Origin: Escherichia phage vB_EcoM_APEC
DNA length: 35,832 bases
Sequence record: MT664721
Reading direction: 5' to 3' (one strand)
A model generated the notes under the pieces. That model was not told the DNA's origin, ran no database searches, and saw only the letters and a list, made by a program, of their open reading frames with translations. Made by a program: the position numbers and the translations under genes. Position 1 is the stretch's first letter. The number at the start of each line of letters is the position of its first letter. Positions 1-35,832 of the stretch are shown here, piece after piece.

Positions 1-1
1 A

Positions 2-448
2 CGAAAAGCGACGCTAGACGATGTGCCATTGCTGATGTTATTTGCTGACTGGCTAGAGGATGAATCAGCACGATATAAGCGATTAGGCGTAAATAAAGAG
101 AAGGTGGTGAGTCATTTCACTGCCATTATCGAGAACGAGAACACAGGCGTAATTCTTCTTGCTGAACAGAATGGCATAGTTCTTGGTGGCTTTGCTGGTG
201 GTGTGTACTCTGACTGGATGACGGACAGCTTATTGACGTTTGACTATGTGAATTACGTGATGCCTGAATGTCGTGGCCTTAAGATTGGCGAGAAGCTTGT
301 GGCTGAATTTGTCAAGTGGTCAAAGCAAAGAGGTGCTAAACTTGTGCAATGTGGCACAGCGACAGGAATCACACCGGACAAAACCATAGAAATGTATAAA
401 CGGTGTGGCTTCAGAGAGCAAGGCCGATTCTTAGAAATGGAGATATAG
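2..448 (+). CDS. GNAT-family N-acetyltransferase-like protein, 3' portion; 5' end is off the window start (or wraps from 35825)
   Basis: Open frame with no stop back to position 2; motifs YVMPECRGLKIGEKL and MYKRCGF resemble GNAT acetyl-CoA binding motifs; sits after tail tubular B in T7-like order (gp13 slot). Track start is GTG at 23. Confidence 0.5.
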   Translation, partial: RKATLDDVPLLMLFADWLEDESARYKRLGVNKEKVVSHFTAIIENENTGVILLAEQNGIVLGGFAGGVYSDWMTDSLLTFDYVNYVMPECRGLKIGEKLVAEFVKWSKQRGAKLVQCGTATGITPDKTIEMYKRCGFREQGRFLEMEI

Positions 449-450: not shown

Positions 451-906
451 ATGGGTTCTTCAGCAGCAGCAATTATGCAAGGCGCTCAGGGCATAGTACA
501 GGGGGTTGGTCTTTATCAGGAAGGACGAGCCGCAGATAAACAATCGAAAGTTGATGCGGAACTGTATCAATCAGCAGCACGAGTAGAGGCTAAAAAGATT
601 CGTGAAGCCGCAGCCAATCAAAAGTCATCTGCAATCGCACAGGCCGCAGAGAATGGACTGGATGTAAGCACAGGCACACCTGTTGTGGTGAATGACTACA
701 TCACACAGCAGTCAGAACAGGATGCATGGATGACCATATTGAATGGTCGCGAGGCTGCATCAGTAACAAGACAGCAGGGTAAGGCAGCACGGCGAGCAGG
801 AACATGGGGCTTTGTTTCTTCTGCTACAGGTGGCTTGCTTGCTGCCAAGCAGACTTTAGATACAGCTAAGTCACAAAAAAGACAGACAGCACTTTCAAAG
901 GGGTAA
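451..906 (+). CDS. hypothetical virion protein (gp14-like position)
   Basis: ATG at 451 preceded by GGAG at 439-442; Ala/Gln-rich 152 aa; assigned by position only. The track's upstream extension overlaps the previous gene. Confidence 0.45.
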   Translation: MGSSAAAIMQGAQGIVQGVGLYQEGRAADKQSKVDAELYQSAARVEAKKIREAAANQKSSAIAQAAENGLDVSTGTPVVVNDYITQQSEQDAWMTILNGREAASVTRQQGKAARRAGTWGFVSSATGGLLAAKQTLDTAKSQKRQTALSKG

Positions 907-909: not shown

Positions 910-2949
910 ATGGCGCGTATACCGTTGGGTAATTTTGGCAATGTTCGGCCACAGAATACAAATGCTCAGGCATCTGGTGCTGGTGCTCCTTATCAGGCTG
1001 CGGCTCAGGTCTTGAGTGCAGGTGCTAATCTTGTTGGAGCTAATTATACCAATCAGCTTCGAGAACAGAATATTGTAGACCAGATTCAAGAACGTGATGA
1101 ACGTCTTAAATTTGTTGGAATATCAAGTAAAACCGCTGCTGATATTTCCCTGCTTGATGATGACTTGACCACAAAGGTAAATGCTGGCGAGTTGAATCTT
1201 GAACAGTCTATTCAGCAACGACAGGACGGTGTTAAGGCAATTAAAGAGCGATATGCTGCTGATGTACCACAACGCTTTCAAAAGAATTTTGAGCAATGGG
1301 CTGATGTAACGGCTTATGAAAGTTCTTCAAAGCTTGCACCAGTTGTCCAGCAGATGAAGCAAAAGGAAAACCTTCTGGCGGTTGATGAAACCATTGATAA
1401 TGCACTCAAGGTAGGTGACAAGGCTCAATTCATGGCTTTGACCACTCAGGCATTAGAAGCATCGGGGCTACCTTCAAACATTAAACAACAGCGCTTACTT
1501 GAGGCTCAGACGCGTTGGGACAAGAATAGTGCATCAACTGAACTGATTGCCCTTTCAGATGCAGGGGACATAGAAGGCATTAACCAGAAATTCAGCAAAG
1601 AGGAGTTAATCAAGAACTATCCTAACCTTTCTGCTGAAAATATCTTGCAATTTCAGGAGTCAGCAGGACGAGAAGCTGATAGAATCGCGCGCGCAAAAGA
1701 AGTAGAAGAGGCCAAACGGATTAACCTTGCTGGACAGGTATTCAATGACTTTAAATCTGCCGTGCTTACTGGACGTGCTTTAACGCCAGAGCTTCAAGAG
1801 AACACACTAGCTGCGGTTCGCGGTACTGAGTATGAAGCAGAGTTTCAGTTTTATCAGCAGCAATCTAAAAACTTTGGCAAGTTCCAGAACATGAGTACAT
1901 CGGCTCAGCTTGCAGAGATCAATGCAATCAAGGCCAATCTGAAGAACAGTAAGTCAAGTGACCCTCAGACAGAAGAAAAGATACTCGGCGTTTATGAGAA
2001 CATCTATTCTGAGAAACTGAATACTATCCGCAATGACCCATCGCAAGCGGTTCGAGAGGCAGGGGTGAGAGTTCAACCTGTTACAGCAGTGCAAATTGTT
2101 GCCAATCCGCGAGCAGCAGCGGCAAGTATTGTTGAGAATGGTATCAGTCAAATGTCCCTGAAAGATGCCAATGTTTCATTAAAGCCGATTCCTGCTGAAA
2201 ACCTTCCTGAAGCTAAACAGGCATGGAATAAATTAGGCGTTGATGGAAAGCTGAATATGATTAGCGAAATGATTCGTGGTACCAGAAACGTGCCGAATGG
2301 GCCCAAAATTTGGGGTTCTGCACTTGGTCAATTGGCTGATGGCGATTTGTCCTATGTCATGGCTGGCGTTGCACGGATGAATGGCTATAGATCACAAAAG
2401 GGTGAGGATGTTGCAACAGCGATTGTGAGTGGTACCCAACTTCTGAAAAACAAGCAATTTGTCATGCCTAAAGAAGATGACATGCGAAAAGAGTTCAACA
2501 AGTATGTTGGTGGTGCTGTCACCGGAACGGATGCCAATACAATGTACTCGGCATTTAAATCATTGTATGCAAGTTCACTAAGCACTCAGGGGTTAACTCA
2601 TGAAGCCAAGGACGAGAAACCAATCTCAAGCGTACTGAATACGGCATTAAGTCTGGCAACTGGTGGCATGTATACTCAGGGTGACTTTAAAAATTATGTC
2701 GGTGGAAAGATTGAGGACTGGAAGGTATCAAAACCTTATGGCATGAGAGATGACCGTTTTGAGGCACACATTGAAGGTATGTATAAGGGACTGGCTAAGG
2801 CTAACAACGTCAGGGAGTCAGACCTTAAAACGCTAAGATTGCGACGCGCTGGCGTTAATCCGCGCAATGGTGCAATCGTGTATGATCTTATTGACGAGCG
2901 CGGTATTCCAAAGTACAGAGGAACAATGCCTAAAGGGGTTTATAAATGA
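910..2949 (+). CDS. internal virion (core) protein, 679 aa
   Basis: Large ORF in a tightly coupled run (start 4 nt after previous stop); position matches T7 gp15-like proteins. Confidence 0.55.
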   Translation: MARIPLGNFGNVRPQNTNAQASGAGAPYQAAAQVLSAGANLVGANYTNQLREQNIVDQIQERDERLKFVGISSKTAADISLLDDDLTTKVNAGELNLEQSIQQRQDGVKAIKERYAADVPQRFQKNFEQWADVTAYESSSKLAPVVQQMKQKENLLAVDETIDNALKVGDKAQFMALTTQALEASGLPSNIKQQRLLEAQTRWDKNSASTELIALSDAGDIEGINQKFSKEELIKNYPNLSAENILQFQESAGREADRIARAKEVEEAKRINLAGQVFNDFKSAVLTGRALTPELQENTLAAVRGTEYEAEFQFYQQQSKNFGKFQNMSTSAQLAEINAIKANLKNSKSSDPQTEEKILGVYENIYSEKLNTIRNDPSQAVREAGVRVQPVTAVQIVANPRAAAASIVENGISQMSLKDANVSLKPIPAENLPEAKQAWNKLGVDGKLNMISEMIRGTRNVPNGPKIWGSALGQLADGDLSYVMAGVARMNGYRSQKGEDVATAIVSGTQLLKNKQFVMPKEDDMRKEFNKYVGGAVTGTDANTMYSAFKSLYASSLSTQGLTHEAKDEKPISSVLNTALSLATGGMYTQGDFKNYVGGKIEDWKVSKPYGMRDDRFEAHIEGMYKGLAKANNVRESDLKTLRLRRAGVNPRNGAIVYDLIDERGIPKYRGTMPKGVYK

Positions 2950-5558
2950 GTATCTGGTTCTCAGAAGTAAGTGATGATGAGCAAAAGAAGGTCAATGAAG
3001 CAACCTCAAAAGGTTTGCCTTATGAACCTATAGTTAAACGTGAAGAGCCTAGCGCATTCTCAGGTTCTTTGAGTGCTCCGCTGCGTGGTGCTGCTGCTGG
3101 CTTTGCTAAGGTTGCCGATGTGGTTGCTGCACCATTTGATGCAGTGACAGACCGTTTAGCCTATACCGCAAAGGATTTAGGCTCTGAAGGTTTTATCGAG
3201 CCATATTCAGAGTTCAAGCAGACAAGGGAAGATAAACGCGACAGGCTAGTGCTGGGTGGTATTGAAGCACTGGAAGACAAGGAGAATACAGGTGCAGTGG
3301 GTCGGTTTGCCTATAGCATTTCTGACTATGTTACTCGGGGAGTAATCGGTAGTGCATTAGGTGGTATCGGTGGTGCTGCTGTTGTGACTGGTGGTTCTGA
3401 ATCAAACTATGTTTACAAGGACTTGACTAATCAGGGAATAGATGAAGACATTGCTCTGACCACTTCAATCATAGATGGCATGGTTGCTGGCGTATCTACT
3501 GCATTGCCATTGTCTTATGGATTTAAAGGAACTGGTGGTCTGGTGGCTGATGCTGCATTGTCAGTGGGTAGTGCCACAGGTATTTCAGCAGCAGGACAGG
3601 TAGCCAGTGGCGTAGTCCTTAAATCAGGTGGTTATGACAAACAGGCGCAAAAGTATGATGTAACTTGGGAGAGTCTTTCAACTGAACTTGTGCTAAATGG
3701 TCTATTGTTTGGTGCAGGAAGATACGCAAGTACACGCTTGAATAACGATATTGATGCAGAGATTGACAGCATAAGTGTTCAGGATATAGAAGCCAGAAAC
3801 ACGGAGGTACAGGCCGCATTAGCAGTTAATGAGTTACAGCTAGATAGTATCGCTCCTGTAACGCCAAAGGATGCTATTCAGGCGAACAATCACCTCAAGA
3901 ATGTTGACACGGCATTAGAACAAATTAAGTCAGGCCGCCCTGTCAATGTCCCATATAAAATACAAGGTGAAAAGAAAAAAGCGCCTATCAATTACGATAC
4001 TATGCCACTTGCCGGACAGGGTAGAACTATTGCCCGACGTGCCCAGCAGGAAGGTGTCGACCCATCTGTTGCATTGACCATTAGCCACTTGGAAACAGGC
4101 GGTCGGTTCAATCCTTCAGCAAAAAATAAATCATCTACTGCACACGGCGTATTTCAGGTTTTAGATAGGACTTGGCGTAATCTTGGTGGTGGTAATCGCA
4201 ACGATGTGAATGAGCAGATTCGCATTGGCTTAAAGCACATCAAGATGGCGAACAACTATATCAACAAGAATCTAGGCAGGCCTCCGGTAGCGCATGAACA
4301 ATATTTAGGTCACTTGCTTGGACCTGCTGGTGCAGTCAAGGTATTAAAGGCAGACCCTAAACGTCCTTTAATCGATGTGGTTCGTGAATATGACCCGAAG
4401 TATGCCAATGCTATTGTGAACAACAATGGTATGAAGGGATTAACCGTAGGTCAGGCGATTAGCAAATGGGAGAACAAATGGAATAACTTAAGTTCTCGTT
4501 ATGGTGGTGCAGAGGCTACACGTTCAACCGCAATTGCCGGGAATGGTATGCCGGTTGACGTTGCTTATGAAGTGCGTGATATACGTGACTTGCTTGTGGC
4601 ATTTGACAAGGAAGGACGTGCAAATCCTGATTCACCTATTCCTTATGACCGCACAGCAGAAACCACAATGGCTCGCATTGATGCTATGGCCAATGATCTT
4701 GATATAGGAAGGCTAGGCGATTCAATTCGCATGAGTGACGGCGCTCCTATTATTGGTATGGATAACTTTGTAGAAAGTGGCAGTGTAAGAACTGCTGCCA
4801 TTGGTCGTGCTTATGAGTCTGGCAATGCTGATGCTTATAGAAACTTTGTACAAGGTGAGGCTGATCGTCTAGGTCTTGATATTTCAGACATTGAACAGCC
4901 TGTACTCGTTCGTACCAGAACCTCAGACATTGACCGTACACAATTGGCAGGTTTGGTAAACAGTCCAGATGAACTACCGGCAATCCGCTTACCACAAGAG
5001 CAGAATAGTCGTATTGACTATGACTATGAAACCATGGCATCAGACATAACCATGGGTAAGCCTGTAGCAATTAAAGACACCATGGCTAACCTACCGCGAA
5101 CCATGGACACAGCCACAGGAATTGAAACTACTACGTTTGTCGATAATAACGGCACTCGTAATGTTTTAGCGGTACGTGATGGAAACATTGTAGGTCAGGC
5201 AAGGATTGAACCAAACACAGGCAAGATTGATTACACCTCTAGTCCTGATAGTCCAGATATTGAATCGGTGATTAGCTCAAAGGCCAATGAATACGCTACA
5301 ATCGAAACAGCTAAAACTACTGCGAGCGAGTCAGGCTTTGGTGCTTCACCGGAAGAACAGGCAGCATTGGACATTATCATGGCTAATCCTGATCAACCAA
5401 TTTCAGTCAGTCGCATAGACCCTGATGGGAATGTACAGGAAATCACCATAACCTTACGTGAACGGTTTAATGAGCTGAGAGCTGAAGCTGAAAAGGCACA
5501 GCAGGACGTTTTGGCTACACAAACTGCAATATCATGTGCGCTTAAATTTGGGGGTTGA
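2946..5558 (+). CDS. internal virion protein with lytic transglycosylase (SLT-like) domain, 870 aa
   Basis: Motif LTISHLETGGRFNPSA...AHGVFQV resembles SLT catalytic region; overlapping ATGA coupling with neighbours; Gly/Ala-rich N-terminal segment. Confidence 0.65.
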   Translation: MSIWFSEVSDDEQKKVNEATSKGLPYEPIVKREEPSAFSGSLSAPLRGAAAGFAKVADVVAAPFDAVTDRLAYTAKDLGSEGFIEPYSEFKQTREDKRDRLVLGGIEALEDKENTGAVGRFAYSISDYVTRGVIGSALGGIGGAAVVTGGSESNYVYKDLTNQGIDEDIALTTSIIDGMVAGVSTALPLSYGFKGTGGLVADAALSVGSATGISAAGQVASGVVLKSGGYDKQAQKYDVTWESLSTELVLNGLLFGAGRYASTRLNNDIDAEIDSISVQDIEARNTEVQAALAVNELQLDSIAPVTPKDAIQANNHLKNVDTALEQIKSGRPVNVPYKIQGEKKKAPINYDTMPLAGQGRTIARRAQQEGVDPSVALTISHLETGGRFNPSAKNKSSTAHGVFQVLDRTWRNLGGGNRNDVNEQIRIGLKHIKMANNYINKNLGRPPVAHEQYLGHLLGPAGAVKVLKADPKRPLIDVVREYDPKYANAIVNNNGMKGLTVGQAISKWENKWNNLSSRYGGAEATRSTAIAGNGMPVDVAYEVRDIRDLLVAFDKEGRANPDSPIPYDRTAETTMARIDAMANDLDIGRLGDSIRMSDGAPIIGMDNFVESGSVRTAAIGRAYESGNADAYRNFVQGEADRLGLDISDIEQPVLVRTRTSDIDRTQLAGLVNSPDELPAIRLPQEQNSRIDYDYETMASDITMGKPVAIKDTMANLPRTMDTATGIETTTFVDNNGTRNVLAVRDGNIVGQARIEPNTGKIDYTSSPDSPDIESVISSKANEYATIETAKTTASESGFGASPEEQAALDIIMANPDQPISVSRIDPDGNVQEITITLRERFNELRAEAEKAQQDVLATQTAISCALKFGG

Positions 5559-8089
5559 TCGTGAGAAAAGAATGTAAACAGGCAGTAGCACAGGCACTCG
5601 GCAAGGCAGAGCTTAGTACTCAGGAATCAATTGATATTGAGCAGCGCATTGCACAGGCTAAAACCAATCTGGCACGTCAAGATATACAAGCTTGGCGTAA
5701 CCTCTCACCTCTTGAACAACTCACCAAAGCAGGTGAACAGGTTGCAAAGGATATTACCGAACAGGCAAGACGCAAGAACATGATTGCGGCTCAGGATATT
5801 CTTATTCAATCACAAAACCTAGCCAAGCTTGACCATCCAACATTGTCATCCATGGAAGTAGTAGACCGACTCATTGCTGCCCATGGTGATATGTCTGGAA
5901 TTCAATCTATTGATTCTAAATCTCGTGCTATTGCTTCAACATATCGGGGCAGACTGGTGGACCTGTATTCAAATGTTAAAGGTGCAATAGGCGTATTTAC
6001 TGACAAGCAGTTGGTTCAGGACATTATCAGGGAGCGTTTTGGACAGAATACAGATAACGCCGTTGCCAAAAAAATATCAGATGAAATGGGCAAAGTCTTT
6101 GATGATATGCGAGAACGATTTAATCGCTCAGGTGGAGACATTGGTAAGCTGGACAATTGGGGATTACCTCAGACCCATGATGCAGCCAAGATGCTTAAAG
6201 CAGGAAAGGATGCATGGGTAAATGCTACAGAGAACATTGTCGATACCTCAAAATATATCCATGAAGACGGAACGTACTATACAGGCGACGAGATCAAGAA
6301 GCTGTTAGAGAATGCCTTCGATACAATCACCAGTGATGGTGCAAACAAGATTGAGATCGGCAGACAGGCAACAGGTGGTGGCACAAGTAAAGTCACTAAT
6401 CGCCACTCTGAGAGTCGTGTAATTCACTTTAAAGATGCAGATGCTTGGCTTGAGTATCAGGCAGACTTTGGTGGTATGCCATTTGTAGACCTTGTAGAAG
6501 CACATATTAATGGCCTGTCTAAGGATATTGCACTGGTTGAAAACCTAGGCAGCAATCCAAAAAACTCAATGAAAATCCTGATGGATGCCGCAGCCAAAAA
6601 AGACTTTGACAAGGGTATCGAAGCCAAAGACACACAGAAGACACGCAAACGCGCTCAAACCATGTTTGACGAACTAACAGGTGGTAATACACCAGAGTCG
6701 GAAGTATTGGCTAATCTTGGCATTGCATACCGTTCTATGAACGTTGCATCCATGCTGGGTGGTACAACATTATCATCTTTGACTGACCAAGCCATGATCA
6801 AAAAGACAGCAGATATTCACGGCATTGCTTTCCGTAAAACCTTTGGTGAACTGCTAACACAGCTTAACCCGAAGAACAAGGCAGATCGTGAACTTGCACA
6901 TAGCTTAGGCTTGGCAACAGAAGAAATGCTCGGCTCACTGGCTCGCTTTGCTGACGATGGTTTAACTTCTGTACACGGTAAAGCTGAGAAACTGGCAAGA
7001 GTTTCAAGTGGCGTGGCTACTCAGGTTATGCGCCTGTCCGGATTAAATGCATTAACTGCCGCATCCAAGGTTGGCTTTAGTAAAATGCTGATGAGCAAGT
7101 ATGGCGAACTTACACGTAACAAGGCTTGGAATGATTTGTCTGAAATGGACAGAGAACTACTAAGCAAAACCGGACTGTCAGAGCGAGCGTGGGAAGTGAT
7201 GCGTCTTGCTGAGCCTGTCATTGACCGCAAAGGCAATAAGCTCATGTCAAACCGTTCAATCTATGAAATACCAGACGATAAGCTTAAGGCGTTTGGCAAT
7301 CCTAAAAAGGTTCGTGATGAAGTGGCTACACAGTTTCAGGCACACTTACTTGACGAGCAAGGCATGGCGGTAGTAGAAGCTGGACTTCGAGAACGTACTT
7401 TCCTGACTGCTGGACTATCCAAAGGTTCAGTGATGGGAGAGATTGTTCGCTCAATGATGCAGTTTAAATCCTTCCCTGCTGCCTTCTTAATGCGTCACGG
7501 TAGCCGAGCAATGAGTAAGCCAACATTAGGCAGTAGGGTAGGCTATGCTGCATCCATTCTGGCAATGACGACAATACTTGGCGGTCTTGTAGTGCAGTTA
7601 AAAGAACTGGCAAATGGTAATGACCCTCAGACCATGTTTGACAGTGAAGACCCGAAAGTAACTGGCTCGTTCTTTGTTCGCTCAGTGGTACAGGGTGGTG
7701 GCCTATCTATTCTAGGTGACATTCTGGTTGCCGGTTCTGATACTTCGGGACGCGGTGTAGACTCATTCTTTGGTGGGCCATTCGCTCAAGATGTTAAATC
7801 TGTTGCTGGTGTTACGCTCGGCAATGCAACGCAGTATTATGAAGACAAAGATACTAATGCAGCTAACGAGCTGTATCGACTCGTAAAAGGCAAGATTCCC
7901 GCCCAAAATCTCTGGTACACTAAAGCAGCGGCGAACCGTTTAATGTTTGATGAAATTCAGGATATTGTCGCACCAGATTACCGTCAGAAGCTTTTAGACA
8001 AGGCGGAACGTGAGCAAAACCGTACAAGATTTTGGGGTGATGATCTTGGTGACATTCAAACACCAGACTTTGAGAAAGTTGTTCAGTAG
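5555..8089 (+). CDS. internal virion / ejection protein, 844 aa
   Basis: Large coupled ORF after the SLT protein; hydrophobic segment (ASILAMTTILGGLVVQL); assigned by position. Confidence 0.5.
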   Translation: MIVRKECKQAVAQALGKAELSTQESIDIEQRIAQAKTNLARQDIQAWRNLSPLEQLTKAGEQVAKDITEQARRKNMIAAQDILIQSQNLAKLDHPTLSSMEVVDRLIAAHGDMSGIQSIDSKSRAIASTYRGRLVDLYSNVKGAIGVFTDKQLVQDIIRERFGQNTDNAVAKKISDEMGKVFDDMRERFNRSGGDIGKLDNWGLPQTHDAAKMLKAGKDAWVNATENIVDTSKYIHEDGTYYTGDEIKKLLENAFDTITSDGANKIEIGRQATGGGTSKVTNRHSESRVIHFKDADAWLEYQADFGGMPFVDLVEAHINGLSKDIALVENLGSNPKNSMKILMDAAAKKDFDKGIEAKDTQKTRKRAQTMFDELTGGNTPESEVLANLGIAYRSMNVASMLGGTTLSSLTDQAMIKKTADIHGIAFRKTFGELLTQLNPKNKADRELAHSLGLATEEMLGSLARFADDGLTSVHGKAEKLARVSSGVATQVMRLSGLNALTAASKVGFSKMLMSKYGELTRNKAWNDLSEMDRELLSKTGLSERAWEVMRLAEPVIDRKGNKLMSNRSIYEIPDDKLKAFGNPKKVRDEVATQFQAHLLDEQGMAVVEAGLRERTFLTAGLSKGSVMGEIVRSMMQFKSFPAAFLMRHGSRAMSKPTLGSRVGYAASILAMTTILGGLVVQLKELANGNDPQTMFDSEDPKVTGSFFVRSVVQGGGLSILGDILVAGSDTSGRGVDSFFGGPFAQDVKSVAGVTLGNATQYYEDKDTNAANELYRLVKGKIPAQNLWYTKAAANRLMFDEIQDIVAPDYRQKLLDKAEREQNRTRFWGDDLGDIQTPDFEKVVQ

Positions 8090-8280: not shown

Positions 8281-8673
8281 ATGAAAGACATAGATATTTA
8301 TGACCTCGACCTGTCCGATTCAGATATTGATGAACTGGAACGGCGCAGAGAGTTAAGGATTAAAAAACGCATTAATGAACGACATGCTTTGCAGACTGCT
8401 TTAATGTGCGATGACCTGATTGACGAGTCAATGAAAATGGCAAACAGGGGATTAAAAGCAGTTGACCCTGAATCTAAAAACGAGTTCTTTGGATTGAGCA
8501 ATAAAGTTGCCACGCTTGCAGTAAAGATGCAGCAAATCCACTTGATGAAAGTCGGCTTGCTTCCTCCTGTTTCAGCGACAAAGGACACTCAGGAGAGCTA
8601 CGAGGCCAAAGTCATTAAAGAGTATGAAGAACGAGCACAGCGGCGCAAAGAACAAGTCACAAGAGTATCTTAA
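8281..8673 (+). CDS. putative terminase small subunit, 130 aa
   Basis: GGAGG at 8272-8276; sits immediately upstream of and overlapping the terminase large subunit; no motif recognised, positional call. Confidence 0.4.
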   Translation: MKDIDIYDLDLSDSDIDELERRRELRIKKRINERHALQTALMCDDLIDESMKMANRGLKAVDPESKNEFFGLSNKVATLAVKMQQIHLMKVGLLPPVSATKDTQESYEAKVIKEYEERAQRRKEQVTRVS

Positions 8674-10346
8674 TGAAGATTAGTTTCTCTGCTTTTTTTC
8701 TGATGTATGTTGAAGGTCGATTGGGGCTAGAAGCTCCCGACTTTCATTTAGATGCTTGTGACTTCCTGCAAGATTTTGCAATGGGTGGAGAGAATGACCC
8801 CGATGTGGCTGTACTAATGTTTCCGCGCGGCCACTCTAAATCTACCAATCTTGATATATTCAATGCTTGGCTAATTTATGAAGACCCTGAACATTGGATA
8901 TTACATCAGGGGACGGCAGACCGTGACGCTTACAAGTGTAGTCGCGGTACATTGGCCGTACTTAAAACCCATCCTCTAACTGAAAACAACGAGCTATTCA
9001 AGAAGCGAGAAGGAACTACATCTAAATGGTGGGTAAATGGCTCAACAGATGAGCGTTACGGTACGTTCTTTGCTGCTGGTATCTTATCCGGTGTGACTGG
9101 ACAACGTGCAACATTCATCGAAAATGATGACGTTGAAACACCAAAAACCACAAATAATCAAGAGAAGCGAGAGAAGCTTAAAACCACACTAGGCGAGCAA
9201 ACGCATATTGCTGTGCCGAACACCAAAACTTTATTTATTGGCACACCACACAGTCATGATTCACTGTATACGCACTTAATTGAAAAAGGTGCTAAGACGC
9301 TGATTCTAAAGATGTTTGAGAAGGAATATAGGATTGAAAAAGGACAGACTAAAGCGGTCATCCCTTTTGCACCAGTACATGCTTTTGCTGGAATCGGAAA
9401 AGGTGCTAAGTATCTCTATCCTGATAAAGATTATTCTGTTCATGAGATTGATGGTTTTTACCATATAGAAATCTTTGGCGAGCATAACCTTGTTGATTTC
9501 TACTCAAAAAGTATTTGGGAAAAGCGGTTTACTCCGAAGGAAATGGAGAAGCGCCGTGTTAAGTGCGAAACAATTAATGAGTGGGATTCACAGTATCAGA
9601 TGCACGCCCGACCTGTAGGCAATATGCGTCTTGACCCTGATTACCTGAAGCCATATTTAGAAGAGCCCCGACTTGTCACAGCCAATGGAGAAACACGGCT
9701 GTATATCGGTGAGAATAGAATTGTTTCCGTATCGGCCCACCTAGACCCATCATCAGGCAAGAAGAACCGCGATGTGTCAAGCTTTACCATTCTTTTCCAA
9801 GATGATATAGGTCGCTTATATTGGCATCGTTCTGTTGGTCTAACAGGAAAGATTATTAACGTTGATGAGGAAGGTAATATCTGTACAGGTGGTCAAGCGT
9901 GGACTGTCGCCGATTTGGTCAAAGAGTTTAACCTTCCTGCCGTGACGGTAGAAACAAACGGTATTGGGGGCCACGTTCCTGATAACCTTCTTGCAGTATT
10001 TAAAAAACGCAAGATTCGCTGCGCCGTTCAGGGCATACATGAAAGCAAGAACAAGAACATTCGTATCTTAGGGGCTATAGAAGGACCTTTATTGTCTGGC
10101 TATCTATATGCACATGAAAGCATTCTGAAAGATGAGAACGGCAACGATTCGGATATTGTTAAAAAAATGCGTGTATTTAACCCTGAAACACAAGATAATC
10201 CTGATGATGAGATTGATTCACTTGCGAAGGCAATCAGTAATGAGCCTGTTCGCATGGGCCGTAATCTTGAACATTTTAGCGATACCAGACCAGACTGGCG
10301 CGGTATCCAGACCAACACCAAAGCCAAGTCAGCACACAGATATTAA
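8673..10346 (+). CDS. terminase large subunit (T7 gp19-like DNA maturase B)
   Basis: N-terminal ATPase region LMFPRGHSKST resembles T7 gp19 FRGIGKS Walker A region; 557 aa. Confidence 0.85.
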   Translation: MKISFSAFFLMYVEGRLGLEAPDFHLDACDFLQDFAMGGENDPDVAVLMFPRGHSKSTNLDIFNAWLIYEDPEHWILHQGTADRDAYKCSRGTLAVLKTHPLTENNELFKKREGTTSKWWVNGSTDERYGTFFAAGILSGVTGQRATFIENDDVETPKTTNNQEKREKLKTTLGEQTHIAVPNTKTLFIGTPHSHDSLYTHLIEKGAKTLILKMFEKEYRIEKGQTKAVIPFAPVHAFAGIGKGAKYLYPDKDYSVHEIDGFYHIEIFGEHNLVDFYSKSIWEKRFTPKEMEKRRVKCETINEWDSQYQMHARPVGNMRLDPDYLKPYLEEPRLVTANGETRLYIGENRIVSVSAHLDPSSGKKNRDVSSFTILFQDDIGRLYWHRSVGLTGKIINVDEEGNICTGGQAWTVADLVKEFNLPAVTVETNGIGGHVPDNLLAVFKKRKIRCAVQGIHESKNKNIRILGAIEGPLLSGYLYAHESILKDENGNDSDIVKKMRVFNPETQDNPDDEIDSLAKAISNEPVRMGRNLEHFSDTRPDWRGIQTNTKAKSAHRY

Positions 10347-14084: not shown

Positions 14085-14087
14085 GAA

Positions 14088-15497: not shown

Positions 15498-15533
15498 CTC
15501 ACTTATTATGAGGCAATTATATATGCTTTAATA

Positions 15534-15710: not shown

Positions 15711-15718
15711 TTTACACC

Positions 15719-17028: not shown

Positions 17029-17043
17029 TTTTAACCACCTCTC

Positions 17044-17089: not shown

Positions 17090-17101
17090 GAGGAAATTTA
17101 T

Positions 17102-20890: not shown

Positions 20891-21078
20891 CACCTGAAGA
20901 AATCAGAAAGAAAGCGCCAGAGGGAGCGACGCATTATATGAAGTCAATCATATTTTTGGATAGCGTTGACCTAATAACATATTTCAAGTGCGAAAATGGT
21001 AAATTCTTTGAATACTTCGCTCATCATTTCGCTAGGTACGAAACTGGTGTTCACCCAACCTTGATTAAGCCCCTCTAG
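20887..21078 (+). CDS. hypothetical protein, 63 aa (paralog of 14096..14293)
   Basis: Shared N- and C-terminal motifs with the minus-strand 65 aa protein; stop codon lies in the loop of the terminator hairpin. Confidence 0.5.
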   Translation: MTPEEIRKKAPEGATHYMKSIIFLDSVDLITYFKCENGKFFEYFAHHFARYETGVHPTLIKPL

Positions 21079-21651: not shown

Positions 21652-22389
21652 ATGAGTAATTGGATTCCAAATTCTTTTCAGCTTCCAAATTCATTGGTTG
21701 ATGAGAAGTACCTAGTAGAGCTAAAAGGTTCTCCATTAGCTATGTACATCTTCATTGTGAGGAAAACTAGAGGCTGGCAGAAAGAATGCGACAATATCAG
21801 CTTGTCTCAATTTGAGGAGTTTACCGGATATGGTAAAGATGCAGTTTTAACAGGAGTGAATAAGCTTGTTGAGCTTGGTTTAGTTAAGCGCGTTTCTTAT
21901 GAAAACAAGACTTCTTTTTACGAGTTAAATGATCAGCCATTACCTCCTGAAAAGATGCTGTCGGAAAATCCGCTAGCGGAAAATCCGACAAGTGCTGTCG
22001 GAAAATCCGACAAGTTGCTGTCGGAAAATCCGACACACAATAACAAAGAAAACAACTTTAAAAAAACAAATATAAATAACCATCCTAAAAAATTTGAGTT
22101 CAAGAAGGAATTACTAAAACTTGGGGCTAGTGAAGACTTAGTAAATGATTGGTTGATTGTTAGAGGGAATAAGAAGGCATCAAACACCCAAACTGCTTTC
22201 AATGGGTTTTTAAAACAAGTGAATGATTCTGGACTTGATGCTGAAACCGTTCTGAAAATCTGTGTTGATAAATCTTGGAGTGGCTTTAAGAAATCATGGT
22301 TATCGAATATTGATCTATCTGAATACCAGACAGAACCCAAGGAACCGAAGCAAGACAGTACATACGAAATTGAACTGGTGGAATATTAA
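21652..22389 (+). CDS. replication initiator, lambda O-like N-terminal domain
   Basis: LAMYIFIVRKTRGWQKECDNISLSQFEEFTG parallels the lambda O N-terminal domain (RKTYGW...SQ); iterons and an AT-rich tract lie inside the gene. Confidence 0.8.
   Translation: MSNWIPNSFQLPNSLVDEKYLVELKGSPLAMYIFIVRKTRGWQKECDNISLSQFEEFTGYGKDAVLTGVNKLVELGLVKRVSYENKTSFYELNDQPLPPEKMLSENPLAENPTSAVGKSDKLLSENPTHNNKENNFKKTNINNHPKKFEFKKELLKLGASEDLVNDWLIVRGNKKASNTQTAFNGFLKQVNDSGLDAETVLKICVDKSWSGFKKSWLSNIDLSEYQTEPKEPKQDSTYEIELVEY
21959..22035. repeat. four iterons (17 bp palindromic unit TGTCGGAAAATCCGACA), putative origin-binding sites
   Basis: Copies at about 21959, 21975, 21996 and 22019 (two perfect, two variant), followed by an AT-rich tract (22036-22100), all inside the O-like gene. 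Confidence 0.7.
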
Positions 22390-25760: not shown

Positions 25761-26726
25761 ATGATTAGTATGAATAGCAGTTTAATTAACCATGCATTGA
25801 GTGATCAGTTAGCCAGAGAAGTTGAGGAATTTCTGGCGCGTGGTGGAAAAGTAAAGTCTGAAGGTATTCAGCGCCGTGATATTGAGGAATTAACGCCGGA
25901 CTTTAAGCGCGACTTTGTAATATCAGGAAGAAAACCTGAAATGGTCAAGGCTGAGAAAAAGGAAGAAAAAGAACCTAAACCAAAGAAAGAGAAGGTTAAG
26001 GTGATTATACCAAAGCCAGAACCTAAACCGAAACGCGAACCTAAGCCCAAGAAGCAGGTAGTCAAAGTAGTTAAGGCCAAACCATTGCCGAAACCAAAGC
26101 CAGAACCTAAACCAAAGAAAGAGAAAAAAGAAAAGGTATTTACTAAAGAGACCTTAAGGGTTAGAGCTAACCAGAAATCGCGTGAAGATGCTTTGAAAAA
26201 GGGTATGGATACTTTTGAAGGTGAGTGTAAAAAGCATGGCATGACTGTATTTAAGATTCACAGTGATGCATTTAGATGCCGTGAATGTGCAGAGCTTGAC
26301 AAGCAGCGCAGAACTGAAGCCAAGAGAGCTAAACGTGATCAGCGAGAAGTTAGAAATGAGGATAGAAAGAAAGCGGCTATTGCAAATGGTTATACTAAAT
26401 TTGATGCTGAATGCCTGCATCATGGCTTAACCGAGCATCATCTTACGAGGAATAGCCGTAATCACACAATTATGGTGTGCACCTTATGCAAGAAAGAAAC
26501 TAACAAGCGAACTGTAGAGAGAAGGAAGAAAGTCCAGTACAGGGATTATGAGCGTAACGCTTTTATTAGAAATCAACTGGCCAATAGAAGAATAAGCTGT
26601 GTTGCGCTGGCAGATGCGATTAATGCTAGTCCATCAACCATGAATAAGATTAAACGTGGTGAACAGCTTTGCAGCGATAGACTATGGCAAGCCATTAATC
26701 AGTTCTTTGAAAAACTTGATAAATAA
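25761..26726 (+). CDS. DNA-binding protein with Lys/Pro-rich repeats, duplicated Cys-containing motif and C-terminal helix-turn-helix, 321 aa
   Basis: GAGGTGA RBS; EPKPK repeat tract (about residues 67-122); two copies of a (F/K)(E/D)..EC..HG.T....CxxC motif; C-terminal RRISCVALADAINASPSTMNKIKRGEQ resembles an HTH. Confidence 0.55.
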   Translation: MISMNSSLINHALSDQLAREVEEFLARGGKVKSEGIQRRDIEELTPDFKRDFVISGRKPEMVKAEKKEEKEPKPKKEKVKVIIPKPEPKPKREPKPKKQVVKVVKAKPLPKPKPEPKPKKEKKEKVFTKETLRVRANQKSREDALKKGMDTFEGECKKHGMTVFKIHSDAFRCRECAELDKQRRTEAKRAKRDQREVRNEDRKKAAIANGYTKFDAECLHHGLTEHHLTRNSRNHTIMVCTLCKKETNKRTVERRKKVQYRDYERNAFIRNQLANRRISCVALADAINASPSTMNKIKRGEQLCSDRLWQAINQFFEKLDK

Positions 26727-27058: not shown

Positions 27059-27147
27059 AGAAAGCTGCCCTTTATGGTTTGGTTCGATTCTTTTTATGGT
27101 GGTCTTTGTTCTGTTTTTATTATTGGCTTATAAGGTGGCAGGTTGAT

Positions 27148-27780
27148 ATGGAAGATTTTAAAATTTTTGTAAAAGATGAAGCGGCAAGCAAGGAAGCCCA
27201 GGAGTTGTTTTTTGGGGTTGGTTTTAGGGGTGGTAAATATAAAGGTTATGATGGGAATAAGCAAAAAACAGAATATAGGTTGTGGGCAAATATGCTTAAG
27301 AGGTGTTACTCGAGATCATCTCAATTAGCTAGACCATCCTATATTGGTTGTGAGGTCTCTGATAACTTTAAAGAATACGATTACTTTTACGAGTGGTGTC
27401 AAAATCAAACCGGATTCAATGAAAAAGGATTTCAACTTGATAAGGACCTATTAAAAAAAGGGAATAGGATTTACTCTGAGGATTTATGCTTGTTTTTGCC
27501 AAGTGAAATCAATACCGCACTAATACTCAGAAAATCAAAAAGAGGTAAATATCCAATAGGTGTTACTTACTCAGAAAGAGATAGATTATTTGCATCAACA
27601 TTAACTATGTATGGGAAAAACACTCATGTTGGATATTTTAAAGATGAGATGTCGGCATTTTTGAAATACAAGGAGGTTAAAGAGGCCTATCTAAAAGAAC
27701 TCGCCAATCTATACAAGGAACAAATTAACCCTCTTGCGTATCTTGCTTTGTTGAACTACGAGGTATCCATTAATGACTAA
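27148..27780 (+). CDS. hypothetical protein with HNH-like motif, 210 aa
   Basis: ATG at 27148 with AAGGTGG upstream (the track's longer version begins in a hydrophobic out-of-context stretch); YRLWANMLKRC motif similar to the 18844 gene product. Confidence 0.45.
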   Translation: MEDFKIFVKDEAASKEAQELFFGVGFRGGKYKGYDGNKQKTEYRLWANMLKRCYSRSSQLARPSYIGCEVSDNFKEYDYFYEWCQNQTGFNEKGFQLDKDLLKKGNRIYSEDLCLFLPSEINTALILRKSKRGKYPIGVTYSERDRLFASTLTMYGKNTHVGYFKDEMSAFLKYKEVKEAYLKELANLYKEQINPLAYLALLNYEVSIND

Positions 27781-28354
27781 TCTATCAGAAATCGACATAG
27801 TTGTTTTGAAGAGGAATGAAACGATGAAAATGAAAGAATATCTAAACGAGAAATATGAACTGATTAATGCGCCTGAGTCAGAAGCTAAAGAACCACATGC
27901 TAAGGGGTGGATTGAAGTACCAGAGGGGGCAGAGATATTAACTGTTGGTATTGATCAGCGTGTATTCTGGAAAGGTGATTTGAGCTGGAATATTGATGGT
28001 TACGAAACTAAAGAGTGGAGATCAACTGATAGTTTCCCGATTTACATGAAGAATTACGAGAAAACGGTTAAGGTATTATGGCAACGCAACGCACCTACCC
28101 TGACAGAAGAACTGCCGTTTATTGATGATGAGCCACATGGACACTACAAGAAAGATGTTAGCAATTTAAATAGCATTGATGTTTATCGTGTATTAAAACT
28201 TTTTGATGTTAAAGACCCTGCATTGCAACACGCAGTAAAGAAAATATTATGTGCTGGTGATCGTGGCACAAAAGATAAGGTTCAGGATATTCAAGAGGCT
28301 ATCGCTTCACTTAATCGCTCCCTAGAGATGATTAAAGAGGATGGCTGTATGTGA
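27773..28354 (+). CDS. hypothetical protein, 193 aa
   Basis: Coupled ORF (ATGA overlap). Confidence 0.5.
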   Translation: MTNLSEIDIVVLKRNETMKMKEYLNEKYELINAPESEAKEPHAKGWIEVPEGAEILTVGIDQRVFWKGDLSWNIDGYETKEWRSTDSFPIYMKNYEKTVKVLWQRNAPTLTEELPFIDDEPHGHYKKDVSNLNSIDVYRVLKLFDVKDPALQHAVKKILCAGDRGTKDKVQDIQEAIASLNRSLEMIKEDGCM

Positions 28355-33722: not shown

Positions 33723-35828
33723 ATGGCACTAAATATAATCAAGTCTAATTTCAGTTCCGGTGAGCTTGACCCGATACTCTCTACTCGCGGCGATGTGGCG
33801 CAATATCATAACGGTGCAAAAGAGCTGACCAACGTCATTGCACTGGTAGAAGGTGGAGTTAAGAAACGTGCAGGAACTCGCTATATTCGCAAAGGAACAA
33901 CATCTGACTATGTTCGGATGCTGCCATTTGCGCCTAGTGCTTCACAGCCGTTCTTTATCATCTTAGGGGTAGGTAAGGCAACCATTGTTAATGCAACCAC
34001 TCTAGCAGTCGTAACCACAGTGACCACGCCATACAACACAGTGCAACGCGTTAAAGATGTTCAGTACATTAACTCGCGTTACACCTTGTTCTTCACCCAC
34101 CCTGATTTTCCAGTTCAGCAACTTCGGACAAGTGCAGATTATGCGGATTGGAGTTGGACAAAATTAATTTTTGATATACCACCATTGGCAGAGAGTGGGC
34201 GCTCACCTAACAGTACATTGCAACCAGGTGCAAAAGAGGTTGGGGCGTCAATTCTGCTTAATTCAAGTCCATATTCCAATTGGTCAGCAACACAGCAGTA
34301 CTACATTGGAGATCGTGTTTATTACAATTCTTCCTATTGGGAAGCTGTAAGTGACAACTTGAACTCACCGCCTTCCGGTTCAAATCCAAATTGGGTGTAT
34401 GTCCCTGAAAGCCGGCCTAATATTTTTAGTCCATCTGATGTGGGTTCTATTATAAAAATTAACGGTGGTCTGGTAAGAGTCACAGAGTTTACTAATGGTT
34501 GGGCTGTGCGTGGAACTGTTCTGGTTAAGCTTAATTCTACGGTTCAGGCGCTCGGCAGATCATGGACAATTACAGGTGGCGCTTATAATGCAACTGATGG
34601 TTATCCGCGTTGCTGCACCTTCTTTAAGCAGCGACTTGTGCTGGGTGGTACTAGAAAATATCCAAACATGGTCTGGTTTAGCCGGATTGGTGACCCTCAA
34701 AACTTCCTTGAAACCACAAAGGATGCGGATGCATTTAGTGTTGCTCCTGCCTCAGATCGTTCTGATAATATCTTGCACCTAGTTCAGTCAAGAGGTGTTG
34801 TGGCTTTAACTGGCGGTTCTGAGTTTCTGATTGATTCAAATGAAGCATTGACCCCGACTACTGTACAGATTACAGAGCATACGGCGTATGGTGCTTATCC
34901 AGATGCTCGGCCTACTCGTGTTGCAAATGAATTGTTGTTTGTACAGCGTGGTGGCGAGCGATTAAGAGCATTATCCTATCGTTACGAAGTGGATGGTCTG
35001 GTCTCGCCAGACATTAGCATTCTGTCTGCACACATTACCCGAAACAATGGTGGGATTGCTGAGCTGTCCTATCAGCAAGAACCTAATAGTCTGGTATGGG
35101 TGGTTTTGGAAAACGGAAAGGTTGCAGGTGTGACATTAAACCGCGAGCAAGAGGTCATTGCTTGGGCATTGGAAGATTTTAATGCTGAGGTGCTCTCTAT
35201 TGTAAGTACACCCACATTGCTTGGTTCTGATAAAACCTTTGCACTCATCAAACGGCTAGATGGTCAGGTCTGGCTAGAACAGCTTACGCAGGATGCATTA
35301 ACTGACTGTGAAGTAGGTTATACGGTAAGCAATAACACCATTACAGCGACACATCTAAACGGATTTGCTGCATCAGGTATTGAGAATGTTCAAGCGTGGA
35401 TGATGGTTAATGGTGCTTATACTCAGGTCAAGATCAAGTCAAGATCAGGCAATGTTCTAACCCTTCAGGATGATGACTACACCGGAAAGACGGTTTATGT
35501 TGGTGCGCCAATCAAGTGTAGAATATCGCTACTGCCACCTGAATTTGCTCAATATCCCTCTTCTATGCGTACCTCAAAAATAACGATTCATTCAGTCTAT
35601 GCGACGATTTATAATACACTTGGCTTACGTGTAAATGGTGAAGATGTGGATGATATACGTTTTGATGATAATCCGCTGAACCCGCTTAAACCGTTTAGCC
35701 GTGTGGTCAATATTGGACAGTATGGGTGGACAACGGTTGAAGACTTGGACATGGTAATTGAACATGACAGACCATTGCCATTTCATTTGCAAGCAGTCAA
35801 TCTCGAATTAACGGTGAATAACAAATGA
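33723..35828 (+). CDS. tail tubular protein B (gp12-like)
   Basis: ATG at 33723, 1 nt after the gp11-like stop; about 701 aa; the track's upstream extension overlaps the previous gene. Confidence 0.65.
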   Translation: MALNIIKSNFSSGELDPILSTRGDVAQYHNGAKELTNVIALVEGGVKKRAGTRYIRKGTTSDYVRMLPFAPSASQPFFIILGVGKATIVNATTLAVVTTVTTPYNTVQRVKDVQYINSRYTLFFTHPDFPVQQLRTSADYADWSWTKLIFDIPPLAESGRSPNSTLQPGAKEVGASILLNSSPYSNWSATQQYYIGDRVYYNSSYWEAVSDNLNSPPSGSNPNWVYVPESRPNIFSPSDVGSIIKINGGLVRVTEFTNGWAVRGTVLVKLNSTVQALGRSWTITGGAYNATDGYPRCCTFFKQRLVLGGTRKYPNMVWFSRIGDPQNFLETTKDADAFSVAPASDRSDNILHLVQSRGVVALTGGSEFLIDSNEALTPTTVQITEHTAYGAYPDARPTRVANELLFVQRGGERLRALSYRYEVDGLVSPDISILSAHITRNNGGIAELSYQQEPNSLVWVVLENGKVAGVTLNREQEVIAWALEDFNAEVLSIVSTPTLLGSDKTFALIKRLDGQVWLEQLTQDALTDCEVGYTVSNNTITATHLNGFAASGIENVQAWMMVNGAYTQVKIKSRSGNVLTLQDDDYTGKTVYVGAPIKCRISLLPPEFAQYPSSMRTSKITIHSVYATIYNTLGLRVNGEDVDDIRFDDNPLNPLKPFSRVVNIGQYGWTTVEDLDMVIEHDRPLPFHLQAVNLELTVNNK

Positions 35829-35832
35829 TGAT
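35825..35832 (+). CDS. first 8 nt of a gene running off the window end (probably the GNAT gene that continues at position 2)
   Basis: ATGATGAT with GGTGA 7 nt upstream, overlapping the gp12-like stop; frame matches the open frame at the window start. Confidence 0.4.

What the first reader, a model, noticed from the sequence alone, without database searches (positions are those of the whole stretch)
35825..35832. A gene starts in the last 8 nt and continues in frame at the window start, suggesting a complete circularly closed genome
ATG ATG AT at 35825-35832 joined to position 1 reads M M I R K A T L D D V P L L..., exactly the frame of the stop-free open frame at 2-448. The joined product is a 151 aa GNAT-like protein with an N-terminus typical of that fold. 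Gene order across the junction (tail tubular B, then a small gp13-slot gene, then internal virion proteins) is also coherent. This implies the window is a whole genome opened at an arbitrary point, and that the physical ends are elsewhere.
Basis: partly seen in the sequence, partly recalled or inferred. Interest (0 to 1): 0.5.

Follow-up and report, generated by a model that had tools for sequence, protein, structure and literature searches.

The report
Circular phage assembly opened mid-gene
The window is a complete phage genome assembled as a circle and cut open by chance inside a small acetyltransferase-like gene, so the gene's first 8 bases sit at the far end of the record; this is an ordinary record artefact that truncated one annotated protein.

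Summary
Observation confirmed, interpretation essentially right, and ordinary. Window 35825-35832 is ATGATGAT. Joined to base 1 it opens a 151-aa ORF ending at 448, a GNAT-family protein above the Pfam cut-offs.

Evidence that end and start are adjacent:
- Seven independent contigs from other samples (92-96% nt identity) run colinearly through the joint. Six hold the exact 40-mer and three the exact 60-mer spanning it.
- The exact joined protein exists as a called gene in public data.
- 67 of 67 related loci place a GNAT homologue 0-6 nt after tail tubular B.

The closure is reciprocal. The window reads through the ends of a 35,770-nt relative and of a 36,948-nt relative with a 30-nt terminal overlap. 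Relatives are opened at different points, mostly inside genes.

The window matches the published Escherichia phage vB_EcoM_APEC (MT664721; ONT/Flye) in length, GC, lysO78 primers and ORF1. ORF1 there is a 137-aa truncation of this gene.

Physical ends cannot be located from sequence. The nearest studied relative, Piluca (TerL 54% identical), packages by headful, so unique ends may not exist.

Side note: the paper reports an E. coli myovirus. The genome carries only podovirus tail genes and all relatives are from Acinetobacter.

The parts
35825..35832 (+). First 8 nt (ATG ATG AT) of the GNAT / IVP-A-slot gene, separated from the rest by the record's opening point
   Evidence: Seven contigs cross the joint colinearly; six hold the exact 40-mer and three the exact 60-mer.
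1..448 (+). Remainder of the same gene: third base of codon 3, codons 4-151 and the stop TAG at 446-448. The joined product is a 151-aa GNAT-family protein.
35..448 (+). The truncated 137-aa CDS as deposited (QMP81458.1, 'hypothetical protein', ORF1 of vB_EcoM_APEC). It starts at internal Met15 and lacks the conserved N-terminal strand.
   Evidence: P0004 equals residues 15-151 of the joined product and sits on a 35832-nt contig.
35813..35817 (+). GGTGA ribosome-binding-site-like motif, 7 nt upstream of the first ATG
   Evidence: Read directly from the sequence. Function is inferred.
33723..35828 (+). Tail tubular protein B / nozzle gene (701 aa). Its stop TGA at 35826-35828 overlaps the GNAT start (ATGA).
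   Evidence: phrog_376 tail protein, E = 6e-158. A 701-aa gene is called in relatives. It is 45% identical to Piluca gp43.
451..906 (+). Internal virion protein (IVP-B-like, 151 aa), immediately downstream of the GNAT gene
   Evidence: phrog_418 internal virion protein. An identical protein lies on Logan contig L087 just after a 151-aa GNAT gene.
910..8089 (+). Three large ejection / internal virion protein genes: 679 aa; 870 aa with transglycosylase and ddrB-ParB segments; 842 aa epsilon15 gp17-like
   Evidence: Piluca annotation as epsilon15 gp15/16/17-like.
8281..10346 (+). Small and large terminase genes, the packaging machinery. If packaging is headful, a pac site is expected in or near the small-terminase gene.
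   Evidence: terS: tblastn to Piluca terS, E = 2e-6. TerL: phrog_38, 54% identical to Piluca TerL, closest solved structures are T7-type. The pac location is inferred, not shown.

Best explanation
The window is one complete unit of a roughly 35.8-kb podophage genome that was assembled as a circle and written out from an arbitrary base. That base falls after the 8th nucleotide of a small gene.

The gene is real and contiguous in the biological genome. It encodes a 151-aa GNAT-fold protein in the slot between tail tubular protein B and the internal (ejection) virion proteins, the position of T7 gp13 / IVP-A. It is translationally coupled to the tail tubular B gene through an ATGA overlap.

Because the record was opened there, the deposited annotation starts the protein at Met15 (137 aa).

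Shown: the end-to-start continuity, the reciprocal circular permutation with relatives, GNAT family membership, and the conserved synteny.

Inferred:
- The phage most likely packages by a headful mechanism. Virion DNA would then be circularly permuted and terminally redundant with no unique ends, and packaging series would start at a pac site near the small-terminase gene.
- The GNAT-fold protein probably acts like IVP-A, as a mostly non-structural helper for loading the ejection proteins. Whether it is an active acetyltransferase is unknown.
For: Join:
- The exact 40-mer across the joint lies inside two IMG/VR contigs.
- Seven contigs from different samples (IMG/VR, ENA, Logan) are colinear across it at 92-96% identity, and three hold the exact 60-mer.
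- The exact joined protein is on record as a called gene.

Reciprocity:
- UViG_3300011883_000004 (35,770 nt) is a circular permutation of the window. Its ends carry a 12-nt imperfect overlap and map to window 15338-15349, where the window is continuous.
- Logan SRR25694545_174 (36,948 nt) has an exact 30-nt terminal overlap. It is colinear with the window all round and is opened at window ~26075-26098.
- Two 36,354-nt contigs from two samples are 100% identical over 15,941 nt but opened at different points. One ends inside the endolysin gene and the other reads through that point.

Single copy and completeness:
- There is no long internal repeat.
- One each of terS, TerL, portal, scaffold, capsid, tail tubular A and B, ejection proteins, fibre, holin, endolysin, Erf, exonuclease, O and DnaB is present.
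- The size matches relatives at 35.3-37.5 kb and Piluca at 35,451 bp.

Synteny: 67 of 67 loci have a GNAT homologue 0-6 nt after tail tubular B, aligned from query residue 1.

Source: the window has the same length and GC as MT664721, and both published primers match exactly. That genome was assembled with Flye from ONT reads.

Headful packaging: Piluca is headful by PhageTerm (PMC9022569) and its TerL is 54% identical.

IVP-A role: Hardies et al. 2016 (PMC4819975).
Against: - No reads are available, so circularity of the assembly and the nature of the virion ends are not directly observed for this isolate.
- The closest solved TerL structures are T7-type, and the T7 family uses fixed direct terminal repeats. 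A collapsed terminal repeat is therefore not excluded.
- Opening points of related contigs cluster somewhat in window 13.9-16.5 kb (and gene lists). This could reflect a real end or simply a hypervariable region that breaks assemblies.
- My shallow profile did not detect T7 gp13 (hhalign probability 0.1), so homology to IVP-A rests on position and on the literature.
- The canonical acetyl-CoA loop motif is only partly present (RGLKIG).
Confidence: 0.93

Rival explanations
1. The closure is right as an assembly result, but the virion DNA is linear with fixed ends (a short direct terminal repeat as in T7, or cos ends) located elsewhere in the circle. The assembler collapsed the repeat into one copy.
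For: - TerL's only solved relatives are T7-type terminases (4bij and 8dgc, E ~1e-8).
- There is a sub-threshold Pfam hit to the T7 terminase RNaseH-like domain (26.2 bits against a cut-off of 27).
- The structural module is T7/epsilon15-like.
- Several related contigs open within window ~13.9-16.5 kb.
Against: - Piluca, whose TerL is 54% identical over the full length, was called headful from reads.
- Openings of related contigs fall inside genes and at many places: window ~14.0, 15.3, 21.8, 24.5 and 26.1 kb, and 35832/1.
- No intergenic repeat or obvious terminal-repeat candidate was seen.
Confidence: 0.3
2. The window ends are true physical ends or contig breaks. The in-frame ATGATGAT is then a coincidence, and the first gene really starts inside the window (GTG at 23 or ATG at 35).
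For: - A random 8-mer gives an in-frame, stop-free ATG 3.4% of the time.
- The deposited record annotates a 137-aa protein from the ATG at 35.
Against: - Seven independent contigs are colinear through the joint, with exact 40-60-mers.
- The exact 151-aa protein is on record.
- Homologues conserve residues 2-14, including invariant R4, which the truncated forms lack.
- 67 of 67 loci show the synteny.
Confidence: 0.01
3. The circle is the biological form of interest: an episomal, plasmid-like prophage or replicative form rather than a packaged linear genome.
For: - No integrase, CI or Cro homologue was found in the window or its close relatives, although the wider family is temperate.
- Lambda-type O/DnaB replication with iterons is present.
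Against: - No partition, telomerase or plasmid maintenance genes were detected in the family scans.
- The DNA was extracted from plaque-purified phage particles (PMC8229158).
- A full packaging and lysis module is present.
Confidence: 0.04

Closest known systems
Escherichia phage vB_EcoM_APEC, GenBank MT664721 (Viruses 2021, PMC8229158)
   Same: - Same length (35,832 bp) and same GC (41.3% against 41.29%).
- Both published lysO78 primers match exactly at window 13476-13496 and 14064-14084.
- Its protein QMP81458.1 equals residues 15-151 of the joined product, and the ORF numbering fits.
- The window is almost certainly this record.
   Different: - The record and paper do not mention circular closure and annotate ORF1 as a 137-aa hypothetical protein.
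- The paper describes a myovirus infecting E. coli, which the gene content does not support.
Alcaligenes phage Piluca (MZ326864; PMC9022569)
   Same: - Same genome architecture and size (35,451 bp): terS, TerL, fibre, holin, endolysin, a leftward recombination operon, rightward replication genes, then portal, capsid, tail tubular A and B, N-acetyltransferase and epsilon15 gp15/16/17-like proteins.
- TerL is 54% identical, tail tubular B 45% and the GNAT 33%.
   Different: - Piluca has a tyrosine integrase, CI and Cro. The window has none.
- The Piluca record was re-opened at terS by convention, so no gene is split.
- Headful packaging was shown for Piluca only.
T7 gp13 / IVP-A family and its acetyltransferase-like counterparts in podoviruses (Hardies et al. 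2016, PMC4819975)
   Same: [quoted passage not shown] The literature reports that this slot holds an acetyltransferase-family gene in many podoviruses, and that T7 IVP-A itself matches acetyltransferases by HHpred.
   Different: - The window protein hits the GNAT Pfam families, not PF11090 Phage_T7_Gp13.
- My 8-sequence profile found no similarity to T7 gp13.
Circularly permuted contigs of headful or terminally redundant phages (a general assembly phenomenon)
   Same: - The contig closes on itself.
- Independent assemblies of the same or related genomes are opened at different arbitrary points, often mid-gene, sometimes with a k-mer overlap at the ends.
   Different: Nothing is unusual here. 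The window carries no residual terminal overlap, so the closure is visible only through the split gene.

Membership tests
Complete, circularly closed genome assembly | The end and the start of the record are adjacent in independent sequences | tested here: met
   Seven contigs from other samples are colinear across the joint. The exact 40-mer is in six and the exact 60-mer in three.
Complete, circularly closed genome assembly | Reciprocity: the record is continuous across the ends of related full-length contigs (circular permutation) | tested here: met
   The ends of the 35,770-nt relative map to window 15338-15349. The 36,948-nt relative with a 30-nt terminal overlap is opened at window ~26.1 kb. 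NODE_81 ends at window 14029.
Complete, circularly closed genome assembly | One full, non-duplicated gene complement at the size of relatives | tested here: met
   Relatives are 35.3-37.5 kb.
Complete, circularly closed genome assembly | Reads or an assembly graph of this isolate joining end to start | not testable with these tools
   No reads are available. The paper states an ONT + Flye 2.6 assembly with primer walking.
GNAT (GCN5-related N-acetyltransferase) superfamily | Match to a GNAT profile above the curated threshold | tested here: met
   PF13508 scores 38.3 bits (cut-off 27) and PF00583 scores 37.2 bits (cut-off 20.7). phrog_1249 gives E = 1.4e-30.
GNAT (GCN5-related N-acetyltransferase) superfamily | N-terminal strand and helix (beta1-alpha1) of the fold present, which is the part that crosses the joint | tested here: met
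   Residues 1-12 align with the N-termini of solved GNATs 4j3g (LLIRHATEADLP) and 4mbu (MIRCAKKEDL), and with the starts of seven homologues; R4 is invariant. This is a sequence-level test only. The single-sequence AlphaFold model was unusable (pLDDT 50).
GNAT (GCN5-related N-acetyltransferase) superfamily | Acetyl-CoA pyrophosphate-binding loop R/Q-x-x-G-x-G/A | tested here: inconclusive
   The window has R-G-L-K-I-G. Homologues have RKTRVA, RKSNIA and RGGTAG. The Arg and the last small residue are kept but the central Gly is not.
GNAT (GCN5-related N-acetyltransferase) superfamily | Acyl-transfer activity | not testable with these tools
   This needs a biochemical assay.
T7 gp13 / IVP-A (Pfam PF11090 Phage_T7_Gp13) | Position between tail tubular B and IVP-B | tested here: met
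   T7 gene order is shown.
T7 gp13 / IVP-A (Pfam PF11090 Phage_T7_Gp13) | Detectable sequence homology to T7 gp13 | tested here: not met
   There is no PF11090 hit for the window protein. hhalign of A1 against T7 gp13 gives probability 0.1. The literature reports a remote HHpred link with deeper profiles. I therefore call the gene an IVP-A-slot GNAT, not a gp13 family member.
Autographiviridae (T7-like phages proper) | Phage-encoded single-subunit RNA polymerase | tested here: not met
   All ORFs of 300 aa or more are accounted for as structural proteins, TerL, DnaB or a 321-aa unknown. No RNAP or DNAP family hit was found.
Piluca-like temperate Acinetobacter/Alcaligenes podophages | Shared structural and packaging module and gene order | tested here: met
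Piluca-like temperate Acinetobacter/Alcaligenes podophages | Lysogeny module (tyrosine integrase, CI/Cro) | tested here: not met
   tblastn with Piluca and TPWB-05 integrase, CI, Cro and Xis finds nothing in the window or in the closest relative. No integrase Pfam family appears in the relatives' gene lists.
Headful (pac) packaging phages | Terminase related to that of a phage shown to package by headful | tested here: met
   TerL is 54% identical over 546 aa to Piluca TerL. Piluca is headful by PhageTerm.
Headful (pac) packaging phages | Permuted, terminally redundant virion DNA shown by read termini or restriction analysis | not testable with these tools
   No reads are available.

The most novel reading that the evidence does not exclude
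The GNAT-fold gene fixed in the IVP-A slot (67 of 67 loci of this family, and Yersinia and Pelagibacter podophages too) may not be a mere assembly helper. It could be an active acetyltransferase that modifies the ejection proteins, or is delivered with them to acetylate a host target at the onset of infection. My evidence neither shows nor excludes catalytic activity or virion incorporation.
Probability: 0.12. Interest if true: 0.5.

Novelty: already known. Interest (0 to 1): 0.1.

Why it matters
The practical value is small but real.

- **Record correction.** The deposited record of a published phage is opened inside a gene. ORF1 is therefore annotated 14 residues short and as 'hypothetical', although it is the conserved GNAT / IVP-A-slot gene. 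The record could be re-opened at the small-terminase gene, as was done for Piluca.
- **Genome scans.** Split first and last ORFs are a cheap and reliable sign of a closed circle.
- **No new biology.** Nothing about the joint itself is new.
- **Side observations.** These may matter more to curators than the finding does. The genome is that of an integrase-less podophage from an Acinetobacter-associated clade, yet it was published as an E. coli myovirus.

Tried and rejected
- **Terminal overlap.** I looked for an overlap of 8 nt or more between the window's end and start and found none. The record was trimmed cleanly.
- **Phage collection searches.** blastn of the joint region and megablast of both halves against the phage collection found no close relative, and not the record itself. 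Only about 7% coverage to Acinetobacter myophage replication genes was seen.
- **The window's own contig.** A search for it in IMG/VR gave 0 hits. Exact-protein look-ups with the tail fibre and TerL were not on record.
- **Structure prediction.** The single-sequence AlphaFold model of residues 4-151 had pLDDT 50.5, which is unusable, so no fold search was run.
- **Bacterial genomes.** A scan with the single tail tubular B protein found nothing. An alignment query was needed.
- **T7 gp13.** hhalign of the GNAT alignment against T7 gp13 gave no signal.
- **Repeats.** Long direct repeats that could mark a collapsed terminal repeat or att sites were absent. Only replication iterons and short chance pairs were found.
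- **tRNAs.** None were found.
- **Taxonomy.** The look-up of the phage name failed.
- **Rejected idea.** I considered and rejected real window ends with a coincidental ATG (see rival explanations).
Full report
**1. The observation**

The last ten bases of the window are AAATGATGAT. ATG therefore occupies 35825-35827 and 35828-35830, and AT occupies 35831-35832. Joined to base 1 (A), the reading frame continues through the stop-free frame 2-445 to the TAG at 446-448. The product is MMIRKATLDDVPLLMLFADW...EMEI, 151 aa.

The preceding gene is tail tubular protein B. It spans 33723-35828 and matches phrog_376 at E = 6e-158. It ends with TGA at 35826-35828, overlapping the first ATG as ATGA. A GGTGA motif sits 7 nt upstream at 35813-35817.

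Within the window alone the mechanical ORF list offers only a 141-aa GTG-started fragment. The bare pattern is not rare. 3.4% of 8-mers taken from this window would supply an in-frame, stop-free ATG. The pattern alone is therefore suggestive, not decisive.

**2. Direct proof that the end abuts the start**

A 40-mer made of the last 20 and first 20 bases occurs inside two IMG/VR contigs from other metagenomes. Both are about 93% identical to the window and colinear straight through the joint.

Exact-protein look-ups with the window's internal virion protein, capsid protein, small terminase and Erf brought in a population of contigs from independent ENA, Logan and NCBI assemblies. Seven contigs from different samples cross the joint colinearly at 92-96% identity. 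Six carry the exact 40-mer and three the exact 60-mer. No base is missing or duplicated at the joint.

In every one of these contigs the gene caller called a 151-aa product with Acetyltransf_1 / Acetyltransf_7 hits directly after a 701-aa nozzle protein. The exact 151-aa joined sequence is itself on record in the public protein collection as a called gene (P0001).

**3. Reciprocal closure**

- I rebuilt UViG_3300011883_000004 (35,770 nt) from three loci. It is a circular permutation of the window. Its two ends share a 12-nt imperfect overlap and map to window 15338-15349, inside a leftward gene, where the window is continuous.
- Logan contig SRR25694545_174 (36,948 nt) has an exact 30-nt terminal overlap, which is circular closure in a k = 31 assembly graph. 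It is colinear with the window all the way round. It crosses the window's joint and is itself opened at window ~26075-26098.
- Two 36,354-nt SPAdes contigs from two samples are 100% identical over 15,941 nt but opened at different places. One ends inside the endolysin gene at window 14029 and the other reads on through that point.
- Other full-length relatives (35,292, 35,371, 35,977 and 37,504 nt) are opened at yet other points, mostly inside genes.

This is the signature of circular assemblies written out from arbitrary bases.

**4. Completeness**

The window has no long internal repeat. It holds one copy each of the following:

- small and large terminase;
- portal, scaffold and major capsid protein;
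- tail tubular A and B;
- the GNAT gene and four internal or ejection proteins;
- tail fibre, holin and endolysin;
- Erf and a YqaJ exonuclease;
- an O-like initiator with iterons, and DnaB;
- nucleotide-metabolism genes.

The gene order and size match Alcaligenes phage Piluca (35,451 bp).

**5. The split gene**

The joined product passes the Pfam gathering thresholds for two GNAT families. It matches phrog_1249 (acetyltransferase) over residues 1-150.

The residues that depend on the join are corroborated:

- Homologues from contiguous genes start M-[MKQ]-[ILV]-R-x-A-[TN]-L-x-D. These are Piluca, Acinetobacter phages TPWB-05 and MD-2021a, and Yersinia phage YeP5. R4 is invariant.
- Solved GNATs 4j3g and 4mbu align from residue 1-2 onto their own first strand.
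- In 67 of 67 related loci that hold tail tubular B, a GNAT homologue begins 0-6 nt after it, with the alignment starting at query residue 1. These loci are IMG/VR contigs and 19 Acinetobacter chromosomal prophages.
- Cultured phages as distant as Yersinia YeP5 and Pelagibacter HTVC204P show the same order.

The slot is that of T7 gene 13. Hardies et al. (PMC4819975) already reported two things. Many podoviruses carry an acetyltransferase-family, apparently non-structural gene there. T7 IVP-A itself matches acetyltransferases by HHpred.

I could not reproduce that remote link with an 8-sequence profile, and the window protein does not hit PF11090. I therefore call it an IVP-A-slot GNAT rather than a gp13 family member.

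Its role is inferred: helping the ejection proteins into the particle. Catalytic activity is open, because the acetyl-CoA loop motif is only partly canonical (RGLKIG).

**6. What the window is**

A cluster-mate of the joined protein is QMP81458.1, 'hypothetical protein [Escherichia phage vB_EcoM_APEC]'. It is 137 aa long, sits on a 35,832-nt contig, and equals residues 15-151 of the joined product.

The paper (PMC8229158) reports 35,832 bp, 41.3% GC, ONT reads assembled with Flye 2.6, and an endolysin at orf11. The window has 41.29% GC. Both published lysO78 primers match it exactly at 13476-13496 and 14064-14084.

The window is therefore MT664721. The arbitrary opening caused its ORF1 to be annotated from internal Met15. 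The paper says nothing on circularity or termini.

**7. Where the physical ends are**

This cannot be settled from sequence.

- For headful packaging: the only read-based evidence in the family is for Piluca, called headful by PhageTerm (PMC9022569). Its TerL is 54% identical to the window's over the full length.
- Against: the closest solved terminases are T7-type, and T7 uses direct terminal repeats.

I put headful packaging (no unique ends, pac near terS at about 8.1-8.7 kb) at roughly 0.6, and fixed ends elsewhere at roughly 0.3. In either case the window ends are not the physical ends.

**8. Comparison and verdict**

The finding is correct and well reasoned, but it describes a routine property of a deposited record, not new biology. 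It is already known as a kind of thing, and the genome is published. I score interest at 0.1.

**9. Passing observations**

The full list is given in the separate field. The main one is a conflict between the paper and the genome.

- The paper describes a myovirus with a 146-nm contractile tail, plated on E. coli APEC O78 from an induced Chitinimonas supernatant.
- The genome encodes only a T7/epsilon15-type short-tail apparatus, with no sheath, tube, tape-measure or baseplate gene.
- All 19 chromosomal relatives are in Acinetobacter, and the only nucleotide similarities are to Acinetobacter phages.
- The GC content is 41%, and none of 5,426 complete E. coli genomes gives a megablast hit to the first 25 kb of the window.

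Noticed in passing
whole window: The window matches the published Escherichia phage vB_EcoM_APEC (MT664721), described as a myovirus with a 146-nm contractile tail infecting E. coli APEC O78. The genome encodes only a podovirus-type tail: tail tubular A and B, a T7-type fibre N-terminus, and epsilon15/T7-like ejection proteins. No sheath, tube, tape-measure or baseplate gene is present. All 19 chromosomal relatives are in Acinetobacter, GC is 41.3%, and the first 25 kb of the window (the part searched) gives no megablast hit in 5,426 complete E. coli genomes. The imaged or plated phage and the sequenced genome may not be the same entity.
   Followed up: partly
window 14084-17235 and whole window: No integrase, CI, Cro or excisionase homologue is present, although the wider family is temperate (Piluca, TPWB-05, Acinetobacter prophages). 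The close relatives of 35-37.5 kb lack them too. This clade looks like an integrase-less, possibly virulent, offshoot. In Piluca the integrase sits just after the endolysin, and here that spot holds only a terminator hairpin at 14088-14107.
   Followed up: partly
window 21946-22035: Four copies of a roughly 20-nt iteron (TGCTGTCGGAAAATCCGACA) lie inside the O-like replication initiator gene (21652-22389). This looks like a lambda-type origin within the initiator gene.
   Followed up: no
window 2946-5558: The 870-aa ejection protein combines a muralytic (transglycosylase / glucosaminidase) segment at about aa 355-525 with a ddrB-like ParB superfamily domain. The latter is PF18763, 93.3 bits against a cut-off of 27.6, at aa 533-658. 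This is an unusual pairing for an internal virion protein.
   Followed up: partly
window 10733-13602: The tail fibre gene (10358-12787) keeps a conserved N-terminal ~125 aa. The rest, together with the downstream holin region, is replaced or strongly diverged in the closest relatives (fibre lengths 818-893 aa). This is a receptor-binding module swap.
   Followed up: no
window 18844-19497 and 27079-27780: Two HNH endonuclease ORFs lie in segments absent from the closest full-length relative (alignment gaps at 18344-19489 and 27214-28349). This is consistent with mobile homing endonuclease insertions and with the mosaic early region.
   Followed up: no
window 25761-26726: A 321-aa ORF is conserved in all relatives. 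It has a near-threshold hit to the SutA RNA-polymerase-binding domain (28.2 bits against a cut-off of 29.3, aa 12-32). It also has internal Pro/Lys/Glu-rich repeats encoded at 25970-26125. It may be a host RNA-polymerase-binding protein.
   Followed up: no
window 14096-14293 (-) and 20887-21078 (+): Two small paralogous ORFs (65 and 63 aa, both phrog_6698) lie on opposite strands, in the leftward and rightward early operons.
   Followed up: no
window 13.9-16.5 kb: Four or five of nine full-length related contigs are opened within this stretch (endolysin end and leftward operon). It is also the most variable region between relatives. This is more likely assembly breakage at strain variation than a real terminus, but I did not resolve it.
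   Followed up: partly
L094 and L095 (Acinetobacter corruptisaponis NZ_CP125669.1, 1000354-1022420 and 1078737-1100803): One Acinetobacter chromosome carries two prophages of this podophage family about 78 kb apart.
   Followed up: no
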